NCBI GenBank assembly: GCA_965262635.1
Contig: OZ253547.1
Span: 4,889,020 to 4,953,019 of the forward strand
DNA length: 64,000 nt
Source: Candidatus Versatilivorator sp.
Lineage (GTDB): Bacteria; Acidobacteriota; Terriglobia; Versatilivoradales; Versatilivoraceae
Direction of reading: 5' to 3'
Below are positions 59,765 through 62,899 of this stretch, piece by piece. How positions within the stretch are numbered: position 1 is the stretch's first letter; every line of letters starts with the position of its first letter. The position numbers and the translations under genes are program-made. The notes beneath the pieces were generated by a model. It was given only the letters and a program-made list of their open reading frames with translations. It did not search any database and was not told the DNA's origin.

Positions 59765-59795
59765 GGGAATTATATACGAAAGTAGCCAAAAGTTC

Positions 59796-59823
59796 TTGAC
59801 ATCCCCTCCTAAAATGGTACAAT
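59796..59823 (+). promoter_or_regulatory. near-consensus sigma70 promoter for the transposase (TTGACA-16 nt-TGgTACAAT)
   Basis: TTGACA at 59796-59801, extended -10 TG at 59815-59816, TACAAT at 59818-59823. GGGAGGAAG RBS, ATG at 59848. Confidence 0.6.
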
Positions 59824-59847
59824 AGTAGCCATATCAGGGAGGAAGCA

Positions 59848-60795
59848 ATGACCAAGAAAAAACACAACGGTCCCGGAAAGTTCTACCGCAAGGGAATGAC
59901 GCTGTCCCAGCTGGCGGACATATTCCCAAACGATCAGGCAGCGAAGGAATGGTTCATCAAGCAGCGATGGCCCACAGGTATTTGCTGCCACTACTGCGGT
60001 TCGTTGAATATCAGCAAGGTCAATCACCCCACCATGCCGTACCGTTGCCGTGATTGCCGAAAGCACTTTAGCGTCAAGACTGGAACCGTAATGCAGAGCG
60101 CCAAGATAGGCTATCGTGCGTGGGCTATTGCCATTTACCTTTTTACCACCGGCATTAAGGGCGTGTCCTCAATGAAGTTGCACCGCGATCTTGGAATCAC
60201 CCAAAAGTCAGCTTGGTTTATGGCTCACCGGCTACGCCAGGCGTGGGGCGAGGGCGTGAATGATTTTTCCGGACCGAATGAAGTGGACGAGACCTACATC
60301 GGCGGCAAGGAGAAGAATAAGCACTTCGACAAAAAGATGAACGCTGGTCGTGGGATTGTGGGCAAGGTGCCGGTGGTTGGTATCAAGGATCGCAGCAGCA
60401 ATCAAGTTGCCGCTGCCGTCGCCGGTGGTACGGACAAAAAGACTTTGCACGGCTACATTGCCGCCAATGTTAAGTCTGGCTCTCAGGTTTTCACTGATGA
60501 GCACAGAGCCTATCAAGGGCTTCTGAACCACAAGGCCGTCAAGCACTCGGTTGGCGAATACGTCAAGGGGCAGGCACACGTCAACGGCATGGAGTCCTTT
60601 TGGGCATTGCTCAAGCGTGGCTATTATGGAACCTACCACAAAATGTCACCCAAGCATTTGCAGCGCTACGTGGATGAGTTCTCAGGCAGGCACAATGCCC
60701 GCCGGATGGATACGGTTGATCAAATGGGGTTGATTGCAGGAGGTATGCATCAGAAGCAGTTGCGTTATCGCGATTTGATCAGGGGAACAAACTAA
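59848..60795 (+). CDS. IS1595-family (ISXO2-like) transposase with N-terminal zinc ribbon
   Basis: CCHYCGS…YRCRDCRKHFS zinc ribbon. VDETYIGGKEKNKH, …VFTDEHRAYQGL…H.VNGMESFWALLKRGYYGTYH are IS1595 DDE-region hallmarks. The 8-bp TSD fits the family. Confidence 0.9.
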   Translation: MTKKKHNGPGKFYRKGMTLSQLADIFPNDQAAKEWFIKQRWPTGICCHYCGSLNISKVNHPTMPYRCRDCRKHFSVKTGTVMQSAKIGYRAWAIAIYLFTTGIKGVSSMKLHRDLGITQKSAWFMAHRLRQAWGEGVNDFSGPNEVDETYIGGKEKNKHFDKKMNAGRGIVGKVPVVGIKDRSSNQVAAAVAGGTDKKTLHGYIAANVKSGSQVFTDEHRAYQGLLNHKAVKHSVGEYVKGQAHVNGMESFWALLKRGYYGTYHKMSPKHLQRYVDEFSGRHNARRMDTVDQMGLIAGGMHQKQLRYRDLIRGTN

Positions 60796-61238
60796 GATCC
60801 ATCACGTGCATAGGGAACAACGTTACTCGACTCATCTTCTGCATCGTCAGTCAGCATGTACTTTCCCCGGCCCACCTTTTCAAAATGTTCAGACGACTGC
60901 AAGGCATTCCAGAGAGTGTGCCCACATTGTGAACCGGTCAATACGCCAGCCTCCTGAAGCAGTGCACGGGCAGTAGTACTGTTTAGATGTCCCCCATTAT
61001 TTTCCGCGATTCGAATCAGCGCCTCTTCCATCTTCATGCCTCTCAGTTCATCTGGATCAATGCCTGGATTTTCATTGCGCATCACTGGTTTGTTTGTCTT
61101 TTCCGTGTAACGATCAATCACAAGCATCAGCGCAGCACGCTGGCTCGTTGCCGCTGCTAGAGATGTCTTCAATCGTTCAATTTTTTTATCCAACGATTCA
61201 ACATCAAACTTAATAGATTCCATTGTTAGTGTTTTCAT
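60792..61238 (-). CDS. coiled-coil + winged-helix (HARE-HTH/Mrr_N-like) protein, transposon cargo
   Basis: GGGAGG RBS before the ATG at 61238. C-terminal …MEEALIRIAENNGGHLNSTTARALLQEAGVL…TLWNALQSSEHFEKVGRGKYMLTD fits the wHTH pattern ending F.(K/R)VGRG.Y.L. TAG stop overlaps the transposase TAA by 4 nt. Confidence 0.55.
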   Translation of the reverse strand: MKTLTMESIKFDVESLDKKIERLKTSLAAATSQRAALMLVIDRYTEKTNKPVMRNENPGIDPDELRGMKMEEALIRIAENNGGHLNSTTARALLQEAGVLTGSQCGHTLWNALQSSEHFEKVGRGKYMLTDDAEDESSNVVPYARDGS

Positions 61239-61332
61239 CGTTGAGCCTCCCGTGTTTTTCCATGTGGTTTGCGTATGGGTTGACACCTCATGGCTGTTTG
61301 ATACTCTGTTTTTGCAGCCTGAAAGTTAGGTG

Positions 61333-61405
61333 TGGACCTGTCGGGATTCGAACCCGGTTCCCCCGATTTAGAGTCGGGAGCATCTCCCAATAATGCTTCA
61401 GGCCC
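61333..61405 (-). tRNA. tRNA with CUA anticodon (amber suppressor-type) carrying G3:U70 and A73 (alanine identity set)
   Basis: Hand-folded 73-nt cloverleaf GGGCCUG-AA-GCAU-UAUUGGGAG-AUGC-U-CCCGA-CUCUAAA-UCGGG-GGAA-CCGGG-UUCGAAU-CCCGA-CAGGUCC-A. Perfect 7-bp acceptor (with G3:U70), 4-bp D stem and 5-bp anticodon stem. U33 and A37 flank C34-U35-A36. GG in the D loop, UUCGAAU T loop. Oddities: A8/U14, C49:A65 mismatch, no encoded CCA. Confidence 0.7.
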
Positions 61406-61424
61406 ATATCTTCTCTTGGGTTGT

Positions 61425-61497
61425 AGGCTCAGGTCGGAATCGAACCGACTCATGTCACCTTTGCAGGGGGGACGCGTTCCCATTTCGCCACTGAGCC
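61425..61497 (-). tRNA. tRNA-Cys (GCA)
   Basis: 73-nt cloverleaf GGCUCAG-UG-GCGA-AAUGGGA-ACGC-G-UCCCC-CUGCAAA-GGUGA-CAUGA-GUCGG-UUCGAUU-CCGAC-CUGAGCC-U. Anticodon GCA. Discriminator U73 and an A13:A22 mismatch as in bacterial tRNA-Cys. One C29:U41 mismatch in the anticodon stem. No encoded CCA. Confidence 0.75.
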
Positions 61498-61503
61498 AAA
61501 CTC

Positions 61504-61531
61504 AAGGGCTGAGGTCGCATCCTCAGCCCTT
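61504..61531. other. perfect 11-bp stem / 6-nt loop hairpin (AAGGGCTGAGG-tcgcat-CCTCAGCCCTT)
   Basis: Read directly. Lies 7 nt upstream (in tRNA orientation) of tRNA-Cys. Followed on the + strand by GCTTTCC (weak U tract). Confidence 0.5.
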
Positions 61532-61645
61532 GCTTTCCAGCCTGTTTTACGCACACATAGCCGAAATACATAAGTTGCAATGATAACACACTGGACACAT
61601 ACTTGAACAGTGTGCCCCGCCATGTGATCTCCATGGGGACACAAA

Positions 61646-61807
61646 ATGAAAAAAAACAGGCCAGCCACCAATCATCCCCGCACACCCAGAATCAAAACTG
61701 AACAACACAAGGACAATCTTAAAGTGCTGGCAACAGCATCACCCGACAAGTTGGCTCAGGCAGTCGTGCGTGGTTTTGGGTCTAAGAAGGCGAAGAAGGC
61801 GAGCTAG
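61646..61807 (+). CDS. possible small basic protein (53 aa), transposon cargo
   Basis: ATG at 61646 after GGGGAC. MKKNRPATNHPRTPRIKTEQHKDNLKVLATASPDKLAQAVVRGFGSKKAKKAS, TAG stop. Below the ORF-track length cut-off. No homology recognised. Confidence 0.25.
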   Translation: MKKNRPATNHPRTPRIKTEQHKDNLKVLATASPDKLAQAVVRGFGSKKAKKAS

Positions 61808-61860
61808 ATTTCTCCCTGAGTTTTAACCTGACTGCCAAGACGAGGACGGCTTGGCCACTC

Positions 61861-62811
61861 ATGATTCCGGAAAGCGTACACACAACAGTCAAGTTCGATG
61901 GACCAGCCCTCGCAGGAAGGTCAATGGATGTGGCGCACCTTGCTCCAGCATTATTGTCCCTAAGCGATATTGTGAAGGCTGCTAACTCCTTGGCTAACGG
62001 AGACAAGGCCGGAATTAAAATTCTTGTAAATGCCAATTTAGAGCAAAAATGCTTCGAACTGAATATCGAGTTAGTTCTAAAGGCATGGGAAAAGGCAAAG
62101 ATGTTGATTGCCGACACGAATCTCGCTACGGCTAAAGAAATAGCTGAATGGCTTGGGATCTCGGATGGACCTGCTTTTGGATTGTTCCAACTCATCAAAT
62201 GGCTACGGGGAAAGAAGGTTGAATCCGTAAGTGAGGTAAGGATTAAGGATGGGACACTTGGAGTTGAAATACGAGTTAAAGGAGAGTCCGATCCTAAAAA
62301 AGCAAAAAAAATAGCATATCAGCTTTACGCCGACGTAAGTACTCGCCAGAAGGCTTTGGAAGTTCTCAACCCATTGCGGAATGAAGGCTACGATTCATTG
62401 CAATTCTACAGGAATGACAATGTCTTTGCGGAATTTGGGAAAGACGATGTTCCTGAAATGGATGGTTCGGACCTTCCTGAAGTAACGCCTCAAAATCTCA
62501 ATATCTCCAAGATCCGAACAATGGTCCGCATCCGCAAGGCCGCCTATGAAGGAACATCAAAGTGGACGCTAATCTATAGACGTGCTATTGAAGCGTCAAT
62601 CGAAGATACAGAATGGCTTAAACGCTTCCAGGCAAACCAAGAACTGGCACCACCTGGAAGTTCCTTGGATGTCGATATGCAGGAGGTTTATACGACAAAC
62701 GAGAATGGGGAGATGGTAGGAGAGCCATCATACCGAATTGTCAGGGTTCACAGAGTTAGCTTGCCACCCAAGCAGATGATTTTCCACGAATCTATCAATC
62801 CTGAGACATAG
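61861..62811 (+). CDS. hypothetical protein (316 aa), transposon cargo, no recognisable family
   Basis: Long ORF in lower-GC DNA. The alternative start at 61924 (MDVAHL…) has a better RBS (AGGAAGG). TAG stop at 62809-62811. Confidence 0.6.
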   Translation: MIPESVHTTVKFDGPALAGRSMDVAHLAPALLSLSDIVKAANSLANGDKAGIKILVNANLEQKCFELNIELVLKAWEKAKMLIADTNLATAKEIAEWLGISDGPAFGLFQLIKWLRGKKVESVSEVRIKDGTLGVEIRVKGESDPKKAKKIAYQLYADVSTRQKALEVLNPLRNEGYDSLQFYRNDNVFAEFGKDDVPEMDGSDLPEVTPQNLNISKIRTMVRIRKAAYEGTSKWTLIYRRAIEASIEDTEWLKRFQANQELAPPGSSLDVDMQEVYTTNENGEMVGEPSYRIVRVHRVSLPPKQMIFHESINPET

Positions 62812-62899
62812 GTTTTTGCACCTCCAAGTGTAAATCCAAGATGTTCCAGACCGCCACTCATCACTACCTTTTGCTTGGCTACTTTCGTATATAATTCCC

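What the first reader, a model, noticed from the sequence alone, without database searches (positions are those of the whole stretch)
59765..62899. IS1595-type transposon carrying two tRNA genes and orphan cargo
Perfect 25-bp TIRs and an 8-bp duplication (ATTCCAAA) show that the whole 3135-bp unit inserted as one piece into a host gene. Besides the transposase it carries a winged-helix protein, tRNA(CUA), tRNA-Cys(GCA), a possible 53-aa ORF and a 316-aa orphan protein. All of this is in DNA of visibly lower GC than the host. I am not aware of tRNA passenger genes in simple IS elements, and this cargo combination does not correspond to any system I know.
Basis: partly seen in the sequence, partly recalled or inferred. 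Interest (0 to 1): 0.8.

Follow-up and report, generated by a model that had tools for sequence, protein, structure and literature searches.

The report
Insertion sequence carrying odd suppressor tRNAs
A 3.1-kb jumping gene of the IS1595 family carries, besides its transposase, a conserved three-gene cassette of two abnormal tRNAs (one built to accept alanine but read the UAG stop codon) and a small DNA-binding protein, so a simple mobile element may be spreading genes that tamper with decoding.

Summary
There are perfect 25-bp inverted ends (59765-59789 and 62875-62899), an 8-bp duplication (ATTCCAAA), an IS1595-family transposase, two tRNA genes called by both ARAGORN and Rfam, and element GC near 49% against about 64% in the host.

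Two corrections. The 316-aa protein is not an orphan. It belongs to the LAPAL family (NCBIfam NF053583, PADLOC candidate PDC-S42), which also sits next to IS1595 transposases in related elements that have no tRNAs. The tRNAs are not a chance capture. All seven sequence-distinct members of the small coiled-coil/winged-helix protein family that I could inspect (32-100% identity) have tRNA gene(s) 90-175 nt upstream on the same strand. Six of the seven lie beside an IS1595 or IS1-like transposase. One of these (L011) is a second complete element with its own inverted ends and 8-bp duplication.

The tRNAs are abnormal. tRNA2 has an invariant G3:U70 pair and A73, the alanine identity set, but its anticodon is CUA, UUA, UAA or UGG depending on the copy. 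tRNA1 has U73 and a conserved GCA triplet in a 6-8-nt loop (cysteine-like).

The closest precedent is the irregular tRNA polycistrons of Acidobacteria (Mukai et al. 2017). Function is untested. My best guess is a regulated mis-decoding tRNA cassette.

The parts
59757..59764 (.). Left copy of the 8-bp target-site duplication, ATTCCAAA
   Evidence: Read directly. The identical octamer lies at 62900-62907.
59765..59789 (+). Left terminal inverted repeat, GGGAATTATATACGAAAGTAGCCAA
   Evidence: 25/25 complementary to the right end; chance expectation 0.00.
59796..59823 (+). Candidate transposase promoter (TTGACA, 16 nt, TACAAT, with TG extension)
   Evidence: 11 of 12 consensus match. This is a consensus match only.
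59848..60795 (+). IS1595-family DDE transposase, 315 aa, with N-terminal zinc ribbon
   Evidence: PF12762 7.4e-39, PF12760 6.4e-6, NF033547 4.8e-53. It is 93% identical to the L005 transposase, 79% to L006, and 49-55% to L001-L004 and L011.
60792..61238 (-). ORF148: small protein with a long N-terminal helix and a C-terminal winged helix. Its 3' end overlaps the transposase 3' end by 4 nt.
   Evidence: AF2 mean pLDDT 74, with helix 6-45 and helix/strand elements in residues 70-129. The best Foldseek matches are all winged-helix domains (Rok, MCM8 WH, RNA polymerase delta), but all at E >= 0.01. The family has 316 clusters at E <= 1e-3. No Pfam, NCBIfam, PHROG or PADLOC hit.
61280..61307 (+). 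Candidate promoter pointing antisense into the tRNAs (TTGACA, 16 nt, TACTCT, with TG extension)
   Evidence: The same -35, spacing and TAnnnT -10 are found at the equivalent place in L006, L007, L008, L011 and L014. It was not found in L009 or L010. Inferred, not shown to be active.
61283..61333 (.). Invariant inverted repeat ACACCU / AGGUGU (arms 61328-61333 and 61283-61288), between tRNA2 and ORF148 and overlapping the -35 box above
   Evidence: RNAalifold stem with 6 pairs, five invariant and one with a U-A to U-G change, in 4 loci. With so little variation, a DNA operator and an RNA hairpin cannot be told apart.
61333..61405 (-). tRNA2: canonical 7/5 cloverleaf, G3:U70 and A73 (alanine identity set), anticodon loop CUCUAAA (CUA, amber). 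This copy has a C49-A65 mismatch.
   Evidence: Rfam 48.4 bits. G3:U70 and A73 are present in 6 of 6 copies. The anticodon is CUA, UAA or UUA in other copies. Mean pairwise identity is 0.91, against about 0.70 for the flanks.
61425..61497 (-). tRNA1: cysteine-like scaffold (U73, GCA triplet) with an irregular, enlarged anticodon arm. Infernal draws an 8-nt loop, CCUGCAAA.
   Evidence: Rfam 46.8 bits, with an insertion in the loop and one non-canonical stem pair. ARAGORN calls Cys GCA here, but 'tgca' in L008, UGC in L006 and CGC in L007. 95% of cells are paired and 4 pairs show compensatory changes.
61503..61532 (.). GC-rich hairpin directly upstream of tRNA1, conserved through compensatory changes
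   Evidence: Inverted repeat I10 with 12-nt arms, 100% complementary. The RNAalifold hairpin has 11 pairs, 3 of them with changes on both sides. In L008 it is followed by T7 on the antisense strand.
61580..61607 (-). Candidate sense promoter for the tRNA1-tRNA2-ORF148 unit (TTCAAG, 16 nt, TATCAT, with TG extension)
   Evidence: Read. Equivalent TATCAT or TAAGAT -10 boxes were scored in L006, L007 and L008. Inferred.
61646..61807 (+). ORF53: small basic protein, probably a real gene
   Evidence: An intact 47-codon homolog exists in L006. 24 of the 40 nucleotide differences fall at third codon positions. It is absent from L007 and L008.
61861..62811 (+). LAPAL-family protein (PADLOC candidate PDC-S42), 316 aa
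   Evidence: NF053583 at 1.5e-57 (195 bits against a cut-off of 60), PDC-S42 at 9e-47, phrog_3243 at 4e-33. There are 144 homolog clusters. AF2 mean pLDDT is 84, with only weak OB-fold matches.
62875..62899 (-). Right terminal inverted repeat
62900..62907 (.). Right copy of the 8-bp target-site duplication, ATTCCAAA

Best explanation
The element is a transporter insertion sequence of the IS1595 family. It moved as one unit and carries two independent cargo modules.

Module A is the LAPAL/PDC-S42 gene, probably together with ORF53. LAPAL recurs as a passenger of related IS1595 elements.

Module B is a conserved cassette with this order: sense promoter, GC hairpin, tRNA1, tRNA2, ORF148. This cassette, rather than LAPAL, is the stable companion of this transposase lineage.

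Inferred mechanism:
1. Both tRNAs are built to be aminoacylated whatever their anticodon says. tRNA2 would be charged by AlaRS through G3:U70 and A73. tRNA1 would be charged by CysRS through U73 and the GCA triplet.
2. In this copy, tRNA2(CUA) would insert alanine at UAG stop codons. In sister copies it would act at UAA or at UUA/UUG.
3. tRNA1 has an enlarged loop, so it would decode abnormally or not at all.
4. About 30% of host genes in the window end in UAG, so such a tRNA would be costly and must be kept in check.
5. The conserved antisense promoter and the dimeric winged-helix protein, whose putative operator overlaps that promoter, would supply this control.
6. The cassette would then behave as a regulated 'harmful tRNA' module that benefits the mobile element, through addiction or abortive-infection logic.

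Shown here: the anatomy, the mobility signatures, the conservation and the identity elements. Inferred: charging, decoding, regulation and purpose.
For: Mobility:
- Perfect inverted ends, an 8-bp duplication and restoration of the target ORF.
- A second complete element of the same kind in L011. Its ends read GGGGGTTATAT..., its duplication is ATAACTAT, and its transposase is 49% identical.

Modularity:
- L002 and L003 hold one 2185-bp IS with transposase plus LAPAL only, at two different sites.
- L006 and L007 carry the tRNA cassette with other distal cargo. L005 adds an nSTAND1 ATPase inside the left end.

Cassette conservation:
- The window and seven further loci (L005-L008, L010, L011, L014) carry an ORF148-family protein, giving seven sequence-distinct members at 32-100% identity. 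Every one has tRNA gene(s) 90-175 nt upstream on the same strand.
- L009 carries tRNA2(CUA) next to an analogous coiled-coil/winged-helix ORF and an IS1-like transposase.
- Mean pairwise identity is 0.91 for tRNA2 and 0.74 for tRNA1, against 0.51-0.72 for the intergenic DNA.

Identity against anticodon:
- G3:U70 and A73 are invariant in 6 of 6 tRNA2 copies, while the anticodon is CUA, UAA or UUA.
- In L010 a G3:U70, A73, CCA tRNA carries the proline anticodon UGG, and its best Rfam match is the alanine-charged tRNA-like domain of tmRNA.
- tRNA1 keeps U73 and GCA, while its loop is 6, 7 or 8 nt in different copies.

Precedent: Mukai et al. 2017 (PMC5389517, sections 15-16) showed that natural G3:U70 tRNAs insert Ala at UAG in E. 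coli, that HisRS charged tRNAs whose GUG sits at positions 35-37, that two tested variants killed E. coli, and that such tRNAs sit near transposon-related genes and toxin-antitoxin systems.

Cost to the host: 8 of 26 host ORFs in the window end in TAG.

Control elements: the antisense promoter is conserved in 6 loci, and an invariant inverted repeat overlaps its -35 box.
Against: - There are no expression, charging or decoding data.
- No toxin-like phenotype has been shown.
- ORF148 stop codons do not covary with the tRNA2 anticodon, and no element gene needs suppression.
- The window copy of tRNA2 has a C49-A65 mismatch, and the near-identical L005 copy has A1-C72 instead. This could mean attenuation or decay.
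- The 'antisense' promoter could simply be the promoter of the distal cargo genes, which lie on that strand. It was not found in L009 or L010.
- The hairpin is a convincing terminator only in L008.
- The L011 tRNA is a class-II Ser-type tRNA with a serine anticodon (AGA), so not every cassette has an identity/anticodon mismatch.
- Only eight contexts could be inspected out of 316 protein clusters.
Confidence: 0.4

Rival explanations
1. The tRNAs are expressed, and perhaps charged, but are not used by the ribosome. They would act as decoys or sponges for tRNA-targeting toxins and defence nucleases, as aminoacyl donors, or as sensors read by the winged-helix protein. On this reading the anticodon varies because it is not under decoding constraint.
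For: The tRNA1 loop is 6-8 nt with the GCA triplet out of register. D-arm-less tRNA-like units sit in the same cassettes in L010 and L014. [quoted passage not shown] L006 lies in a defence island with HigBA, PDC-S27 at 1e-152 and hsdS. An efficient amber suppressor would hit about 30% of host stop codons.
Against: Apart from its anticodon, tRNA2 is a fully canonical elongator. It has a 7-nt loop with U33 and A37, the T-loop GTTCGAATC and GG in the D-loop. The observed anticodons are not random. CUA, UUA and UAA differ from one another by single steps and are nonsense or rare-codon readers. No tRNA-targeting enzyme gene is consistently adjacent.
Confidence: 0.3
2. The cassette is a decaying hitch-hiker. 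These would be former tRNA genes picked up once by an ancestral IS and now drifting, with no function for element or host.
For: The window and L005 copies each have one destabilising mismatch. The L006 tRNA2 has an A-C mismatch in its T stem. L008 is a remnant with a degraded transposase. The family is rare: one hit in 185,579 species genomes, and none in the JGI metagenomes, IMG/VR, plasmids or phages.
Against: tRNA2 is more conserved (0.91) than every flanking segment (0.51-0.74). tRNA1 keeps its cloverleaf through compensatory changes. The tRNA-plus-ORF arrangement persists down to 32-43% protein identity and across two transposase families. G3:U70 is invariant.
Confidence: 0.1
3. This is ordinary codon supplementation. 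The low-GC element would bring tRNAs for codons that are rare in its high-GC host, as many phages do.
For: The element has about 49% GC against about 64% in the host. TTA occurs at 0.9 per 1000 codons in host ORFs, and one sister copy has anticodon UAA.
Against: CUA and UUA read stop codons, not sense codons. The scaffold carries alanine identity, not leucine. The element's genes contain only 3 TTA codons in total, all in LAPAL. Cysteine codons are few in the element's genes.
Confidence: 0.05
4. The host, or an associated phage, uses a recoded genetic code in which UAG is a sense codon, and tRNA2 is its cognate tRNA.
For: Phage-encoded suppressor tRNAs for recoded stop codons are known (established knowledge: Borges et al. 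2022). ARAGORN labels the tRNA 'Pyl'.
Against: All element and host ORFs are intact under code 11, and 8 of 26 host ORFs terminate at TAG. The tRNA has none of the tRNA-Pyl peculiarities, so the label reflects the anticodon only. Sister copies carry other anticodons. No copies were found in 2.9 million viral contigs.
Confidence: 0.03

Closest known systems
Transporter IS (tIS) of the IS1595 family, ISNwi1 subgroup with passenger genes (Siguier, Gagnevin and Chandler 2009; ISfinder). Recalled from memory, not checked here.
   Same: DDE_Tnp_IS1595 transposase with an N-terminal zinc ribbon, 8-bp duplication, ends starting GGnnnTTAT, and a length of 2-4 kb caused by non-transposition passenger genes.
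   Different: I know of no described member with tRNA genes as passengers, and one full-text search found none. Here the tRNA cassette is kept across at least two diverged lineages (transposases 49% identical).
Polycistrons of irregular tRNAs and allo-tRNAs in Acidobacteria (Mukai et al. 2017, PMC5389517; review PMC7609411)
   Same: Two or three tRNA-like genes in tandem; nonsense or missense anticodons on scaffolds whose identity elements (G3:U70, the Ser arm, or a shifted anticodon triplet) predict charging regardless of anticodon; location near transposon-related genes and toxin-antitoxin systems. The named relatives here are Acidobacteriota MAGs (L009, L014).
   Different: tRNA1 and tRNA2 have the canonical 7/5 acceptor/T arrangement, not 8/4 or 9/3. 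As far as I could read, that work does not report the constant small winged-helix partner gene, the conserved antisense promoter, or carriage inside a delimited IS with ends and a duplication.
Suppressor tRNAs of stop-codon-recoded phages (Borges et al. 2022; established knowledge)
   Same: A mobile element encodes a tRNA with a CUA or UUA anticodon.
   Different: In those phages the tRNA reads in-frame recoded stops in the phage's own late genes. Here no element gene contains an in-frame stop, and there are no viral-contig relatives.
Deliberate mistranslation by anticodon-mismatched tRNA (tRNAProA with ProRSx in Streptomyces; Vargas-Rodriguez et al. 2021; from memory)
   Same: A natural tRNA whose identity and anticodon disagree. 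The L010 copy is the mirror case: alanine identity with a proline anticodon.
   Different: No dedicated synthetase gene is present. The mismatch relies on the anticodon-blind AlaRS.
LAPAL family NF053583 / PADLOC PDC-S42 / phrog_3243
   Same: The 316-aa cargo protein is a full-length member.
   Different: The names disagree ('putative phage structural protein' against 'phage defence candidate') and neither is tested. PDC candidates come from guilt-by-embedding in defence loci (bioRxiv 10.1101/2024.01.29.577857), which an IS passenger could satisfy simply by inserting there. L001 sits beside hsdR, although the transposase next to hsdS in L006 has no LAPAL.

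Membership tests
IS1595 family insertion sequence | DDE transposase of the IS1595/ISXO2 type with an N-terminal zinc ribbon | tested here: met
   PF12762 7.4e-39 (133.6 bits, cut-off 27); PF12760 26.5 bits (cut-off 25.4); NF033547 180 bits (cut-off 75).
IS1595 family insertion sequence | Terminal inverted repeats and an 8-bp target duplication | tested here: met
   25/25-nt inverted repeat and ATTCCAAA on both sides. The same architecture is seen in L002/L003 (inverted ends only checked) and in L011 (inverted ends plus the 8-bp duplication ATAACTAT).
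IS1595 family, ISNwi1 subgroup with passenger genes | End consensus ggnnatTAT and a length of 1.75-4.75 kb with passenger genes (ISfinder table, recalled from memory) | not testable with these tools
   The ends GGGAATTAT and the 3135-bp length fit what I recall, but no ISfinder copy or ISNwi1 sequence was available. The literature search found nothing usable.
tRNA (Rfam RF00005) | Cloverleaf scoring above the gathering threshold | tested here: met
   48.4 and 46.8 bits against 29. ARAGORN calls both. tRNA1 has 4 pairs with compensatory changes. The tRNA2 helices hardly vary: 97.6% of cells are paired and none shows a change on both sides.
tRNA-Ala isoacceptor (for tRNA2) | G3:U70 wobble pair plus A73, the AlaRS identity set | tested here: met
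   G-U at positions 3:70 in 6 of 6 copies and A73 in 6 of 6. Actual charging was not tested.
tRNA-Ala isoacceptor (for tRNA2) | An anticodon that reads GCN codons | tested here: not met
   The anticodon is CUA here, and UAA, UUA or CUA in sister copies. tRNA2 is therefore alanine-like in identity, but it is not a normal alanine isoacceptor.
tRNA-Cys isoacceptor (for tRNA1) | U73 discriminator and a GCA anticodon at positions 34-36 of a 7-nt loop | tested here: inconclusive
   U73 and a GCA triplet are present in all copies. ARAGORN draws a 7-nt loop with GCA here. Infernal needs a loop insertion and a C-U mismatch. Relatives have loops CUUGCAAA (8 nt), CUCGCAA on a 6-bp stem, and a 6- or 7-nt UGCAA-core loop (7-nt CUUGCAA as Rfam draws it) in L014.
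tRNA-Pyl (ARAGORN label) | Compact D-loop, 3-nt variable loop, elongated anticodon stem, and pyl genes (established knowledge) | tested here: not met
   tRNA2 has a 9-nt D-loop with GG, a 5-bp anticodon stem and a 4-nt variable region. The label follows the anticodon only. pyl genes were not searched genome-wide.
allo-tRNA (Mukai et al. 2017) | 12-bp acceptor branch arranged 8/4 or 9/3, with a long variable arm | tested here: not met
   Both tRNAs align to the standard model as 7/5 with short variable regions.
LAPAL family (NF053583) / PDC-S42 | Full-length HMM match above the curated cut-off | tested here: met
   195.2 bits against a cut-off of 60, covering residues 9-299 of 316. PDC-S42 scores 158 bits over profile positions 6-297 of 302.
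Anti-phage defence system (as implied by PDC-S42) | Demonstrated protection against phage | not testable with these tools
   PDC entries are untested candidates derived by guilt-by-embedding (bioRxiv 10.1101/2024.01.29.577857, section 10).
Toxin-antitoxin / addiction module (for the tRNA cassette) | A growth-inhibiting product and a cognate neutraliser | not tested
   Only indirect evidence: a conserved antisense promoter, the host's use of TAG stops, and two lethal tRNA variants in Mukai et al. (PMC5389517, section 16).

The most novel reading that the evidence does not exclude
Small transposons of the IS1595 and IS1 families spread a previously unrecognised kind of selfish or defence module whose effector is a tRNA. 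The tRNAs would be alanine- and cysteine-accepting species with nonsense, mismatched or out-of-register anticodons. They would corrupt decoding when released from control by an antisense transcript and a dimeric winged-helix repressor. In effect this would be a 'toxic tRNA' toxin-antitoxin or abortive-infection system.
Probability: 0.2. Interest if true: 0.9.

Novelty: new variant of a known kind. Interest (0 to 1): 0.68.

Why it matters
Natural suppressor and identity-mismatched tRNAs are rare. They bear on how the genetic code can be bent, and on tools for code expansion.

This locus places such tRNAs inside a cleanly delimited mobile element with a constant protein partner and conserved control signals. 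That turns a loose earlier observation (odd tRNAs near transposons in Acidobacteria) into a defined cassette of about 0.85 kb that can be cloned and tested.

If the tRNAs decode, a simple IS can transfer stop-codon read-through between genomes. If they do not decode, they are a new class of tRNA-derived regulatory or decoy RNA.

The locus also shows that LAPAL/PDC-S42 is an IS passenger, which is a caution when reading 'defence candidates' found by genomic embedding.

Tried and rejected
Searches that found nothing:
- Two pattern scans of the JGI metagenome contigs, two viral-contig DNA pattern scans (one tRNA2, one inverted end) plus one protein-alignment scan with the ORF148 family (A3), and blastn of the cassette against plasmids and phages. 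The known copies come from ENA assemblies and two NCBI MAGs, which these scans did not cover or could not reach.
- blastn of each tRNA against E. coli genomes, meant to classify the isotype by nearest neighbour. Isotype therefore rests on identity elements.
- Exact look-ups of the window's own transposase and LAPAL protein were not on record. Copy number in the source genome and the empty site could not be checked.
- Host taxonomy could not be resolved.
- The supplements of Mukai et al. are not held, so a direct sequence comparison with their tRNA0/1/2 was impossible.

Ideas tested and rejected:
- The suppressor serves ORF148 read-through. Stop codons are TAG, TAA, TAA and TAG against anticodons CUA, UAA, CUA and UUA, so there is no covariation.
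- tRNA-Pyl. The label reflects the anticodon only.
- LAPAL as a phage structural protein. There was no tblastn hit in 50,697 phage records. There are 56 distant relatives in IMG/VR contigs, and none of them is next to an IS1595 transposase or an ORF148 relative.
- Homology between the L009 ORF and ORF148. hhalign probability is 0.5%, so the two are only analogous in architecture.
- Foldseek of LAPAL gave only weak OB-fold matches.

Full report
**1. The observation**

The sequence GGGAATTATATACGAAAGTAGCCAA occurs exactly twice in the window, at 59765-59789 (+) and 62875-62899 (-). None is expected in 100 shuffles (inverted repeat I1). The octamer ATTCCAAA directly abuts both ends. Removing the element and one octamer restores a continuous 183-codon minus-strand ORF with no family match. 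Downstream of it there are frame-shifted remains of a longer repeat protein, so the target may already have been decaying.

The 315-aa ORF at 59848-60795 is an IS1595-family transposase: PF12762 at 7e-39, the zinc ribbon PF12760, and NF033547 at 5e-53. ARAGORN and Rfam both call two tRNAs on the minus strand. Element GC is about 0.43-0.55 against 0.60-0.75 outside.

**2. The 316-aa 'orphan' is a known family and a recurrent IS1595 passenger**

The protein matches NCBIfam NF053583, 'LAPAL motif-containing putative phage structural protein' (195 bits, cut-off 60). It also matches PADLOC PDC-S42 (9e-47) and phrog_3243. It has 144 homolog clusters.

The four closest contexts I could fetch all place it next to an IS1595 transposase (L001-L004). 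L002 and L003 are the same 2185-bp element at two different sites. That element has related ends, GGGAATTATCCAGGATACTAGCCAA, and holds only the transposase and LAPAL, 66 bp apart. None of these four loci has tRNAs inside the element.

More distant relatives (23-54% identity) occur in 56 IMG/VR contigs, with no transposase or ORF148 relative nearby. There were no hits among 50,697 deposited phage genomes. AF2 gives a confident model (mean pLDDT 84), but Foldseek returns only weak OB-fold matches.

PDC entries are untested candidates obtained by 'guilt-by-embedding' in defence loci (bioRxiv 10.1101/2024.01.29.577857). An IS passenger that lands in such loci would qualify for that reason alone; L001 lies beside hsdR, whereas the element beside hsdS in L006 has no LAPAL. 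The function of LAPAL remains unknown.

**3. The tRNAs and the small protein form one conserved cassette**

The word-indexed search found only four clusters related to the 164-aa ORF. The real start is M17, giving 148 aa behind a GGGAGG ribosome-binding site. In each of these four clusters the gene is preceded on the same strand by the same two tRNA genes, about 20 nt apart (L005-L008).

In all four loci the 3' end of the ORF abuts, convergently, the 3' end of a closely related IS1595 transposase or its remnant. The rest of the cargo differs between copies:
- LAPAL and ORF53 in the window;
- a 92-aa ORF in L006;
- 85-aa and 120-aa ORFs in L007;
- an extra nSTAND1 ATPase inside the left end in L005.

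For this transposase lineage, the tRNA-tRNA-ORF148 cassette is therefore the constant part and LAPAL the variable part.

**4. The association reaches far beyond this lineage**

A profile search without a word index found 316 clusters at E <= 1e-3, and 67 at E <= 1e-10. Nearly all are 130-180 aa and match over their full length. I could fetch contexts for three distant members, at 36-43% identity by the search's BLASTP figures. Each has a tRNA gene 90-175 nt upstream on the same strand.

- L010 has a canonical tRNA with G3:U70, A73 and CCA but the proline anticodon UGG. Its best Rfam match is the alanine-charged tRNA-like domain of tmRNA. It is followed by a D-arm-less tRNA-like unit that also has G3:U70.
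- L011 has a class-II tRNA with anticodon AGA.
- L014 has a homolog of tRNA1 (U73, loop CUUGCAA), preceded by another D-arm-less unit.

L011 is a second complete element. Its ends are GGGGGTTATATAC... and ...GATATAACCCCC, its 8-bp duplication is ATAACTAT, and it is 3616 bp long, lying between argR and argC. Its transposase is 49% identical to the window's.

The single hit of a tRNA2 pattern in 185,579 species genomes is L009, an Acidobacteriota MAG. There tRNA2(CUA) scores 51.7 bits. It lies next to an IS1-like transposase and a non-homologous protein with the same coiled-coil plus winged-helix layout.

With roughly one tRNA gene per 100 kb, seven of seven sequence-distinct family members having a tRNA within 200 nt upstream cannot be chance. 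That density figure is my own estimate, not a tool result.

**5. What is odd about the tRNAs**

tRNA2 is a textbook 7/5 cloverleaf. Its acceptor stem, GGGCCUG/CAGGUCC, contains G3:U70, followed by A73. Both features are present in 6 of 6 copies. This is the identity set that makes AlaRS charge a tRNA irrespective of its anticodon (established knowledge: Hou and Schimmel 1988, McClain and Foss 1988). Mukai et al. confirmed it for natural G3:U70 tRNAs, which inserted Ala at UAG in E. coli (PMC5389517, section 15).

The tRNA2 anticodon is CUA in the window, L005, L007 and L009. It is UAA in L006 and UUA in L008. tRNA2 is the most conserved segment of the region, with mean pairwise identity 0.91 against 0.51-0.74 for everything around it.

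tRNA1 keeps its helices through compensatory changes. It always has U73 and a GCA triplet, the CysRS identity elements, but the loop around GCA changes between copies:
- CCUGCAAA, 8 nt as Infernal draws it, in the window;
- CUUGCAAA in L006 and L008, where ARAGORN reports a 4-base anticodon 'tgca' for L008;
- CUCGCAA on a 6-bp stem in L007;
- a 6- or 7-nt loop with a UGCAA core in L014.

Across these cassettes the recognisable scaffolds are therefore Ala-type and Ser-type, whose synthetases do not read the anticodon, and Cys-type, in which the recognised triplet is kept but moved out of register. This is the pattern Mukai et al. described for acidobacterial 'polycistrons of irregular tRNAs'. 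Among them, HisRS charged tRNAs whose GUG sat at positions 35-37, yet those tRNAs did not decode (PMC5389517, section 16).

**6. Cassette anatomy**

Reading in the direction of the tRNAs, the cassette contains:
- a candidate promoter with a TG-extended -10 box (window 61580-61607, minus strand);
- a GC-rich hairpin kept by compensatory changes (61503-61532);
- tRNA1, a 19-nt spacer, then tRNA2;
- an invariant inverted repeat, ACACCU...AGGUGU;
- a ribosome-binding site and ORF148.

On the opposite strand, between ORF148 and tRNA2, a motif of TTGACA, 16 nt, TAnnnT (mostly TG-extended) is conserved at the same place in six loci, including the distant L011 and L014. It was not found in L009 or L010. 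It points into the tRNAs, and its -35 box overlaps one arm of the inverted repeat. It could make an antisense RNA across both tRNAs. It could equally be the promoter of the distal cargo, which always lies on that strand.

ORF148 is predicted to be a long helix followed by a winged helix. Its best structural neighbours are DNA-binding winged helices, all at weak E-values. ORF53 is probably a real gene: L006 has an intact homolog, and 24 of the 40 differences fall at third codon positions.

**7. How it most likely works**

Shown: the element is a mobile unit, the cassette is conserved and under selection, and the tRNAs carry charging identity elements that disagree with, or are out of register with, their anticodons.

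Inferred: tRNA2 is charged with Ala and, in this copy, reads UAG. Eight of 26 host ORFs in the window end in TAG, so an efficient suppressor would be costly. That cost argues either for tight control, with the tRNA acting as a harmful effector, or for a non-decoding role.

I favour the regulated mis-decoding model at 0.4. The decoy or other non-translational model follows at 0.3. Decay (0.1), codon supplementation (0.05) and recoding (0.03) are disfavoured.

Evidence against a simple 'suppressor for the element's own genes' idea:
- no element gene has an in-frame stop codon;
- ORF148 stop codons do not track the anticodon.

Caveats:
- The window copy of tRNA2 has a C49-A65 mismatch, and the L005 copy has A1-C72.
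- The tRNA in L011 has matching serine identity and anticodon.
- Only eight contexts were examined.

**8. Comparison with what is known, and novelty**

As a mobile element this is a member of the IS1595 family; all defining features that I could test were met. From my memory of ISfinder, its ends (GGnnnTTAT), 8-bp duplication and passenger genes fit the passenger-carrying part of the ISNwi1 subgroup. I could not verify that here.

The tRNA cassette is closest to the irregular tRNA polycistrons and G3:U70 allo-tRNAs of Acidobacteria. It fails the structural definition of allo-tRNA, because it is 7/5 rather than 8/4 or 9/3. It also adds three features I did not find described:
- a constant winged-helix partner gene;
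- conserved bidirectional promoter signals;
- carriage within delimited IS1595 elements, and next to IS1-like transposases.

I found no report of tRNA passenger genes in an IS, but the search was limited.

I rate the finding a new variant of a known kind, with interest 0.68. The anatomy is solid and surprising to tRNA and transposon specialists, and it is directly testable. There is a partial precedent, and there are no functional data.

Noticed in passing
L011:2781-6396: A second complete IS1595-type transporter element. Its ends are GGGGGTTATATAC... and its 8-bp duplication is ATAACTAT, and it lies between argR and argC. It carries a class-II tRNA(AGA), an ORF148-family gene, and an inverted fragment of a transposase 3' end (inverted repeat I2, 3628-3660 with 5605-5637). 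That fragment suggests a nested or recombined origin.
   Followed up: partly
L010:4853-4918 and L014:4722-4789 (approximate): D-arm-less tRNA-like units (acceptor stem, one central arm and a T arm) that share the string GCAGGTTCGCCGG. ARAGORN misses them and Rfam misses them at its gathering score. The L010 unit also has G3:U70. They may correspond to the 'extra-loop' tRNAs of Mukai et al.
   Followed up: partly
L005:1771-3130: In a 95%-identical copy of the element, an nSTAND1/AAA ATPase gene (430 aa; weak PADLOC hits to PDC-S59 and mad8) sits between the left inverted end and the transposase. The cargo at that position is therefore also variable.
   Followed up: partly
L006:1819-9498: The truncated copy in L006 lies in a defence-island-like stretch. 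It contains a HigB/HTH toxin-antitoxin pair, a 693-aa ATPase matching PADLOC PDC-S27 at 1e-152, and a type I restriction S subunit.
   Followed up: no
window:16340-19077: Two further transposase genes lie side by side: an IS5/IS1182-like one at 16340-17470 (-) and an IS4-family one at 17908-19077 (-). GC dips locally to about 0.59. The window is rich in insertion sequences.
   Followed up: no
window:50-12922: A single 4290-aa ORF on the plus strand, with strongly positive GC skew, fills the first 13 kb of the window. It was not examined.
   Followed up: no
window:56539-59328: Immediately upstream of the insertion lies a hybrid GAF-PAS histidine kinase fused to a receiver and an OmpR-type DNA-binding domain. 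Its GC of 0.70-0.75 is clearly above the window average, so this flank may itself be foreign.
   Followed up: no
window:59434-59763 and 62908-63385 (minus strand): The interrupted host ORF is followed, in another frame, by glycine/tryptophan-rich repeat-like sequence (GKKHGKWVESW...). The target may have been a longer gene that was already frame-shifted. Neither piece matches any Pfam family.
   Followed up: partly
window:61333-61405 compared with L005:94-167: The two nearly identical tRNA2 copies each carry a different single helix-breaking change: C49-A65 in the window and A1-C72 in L005. All other copies are fully paired at those positions. This could be attenuation or early decay.
   Followed up: no
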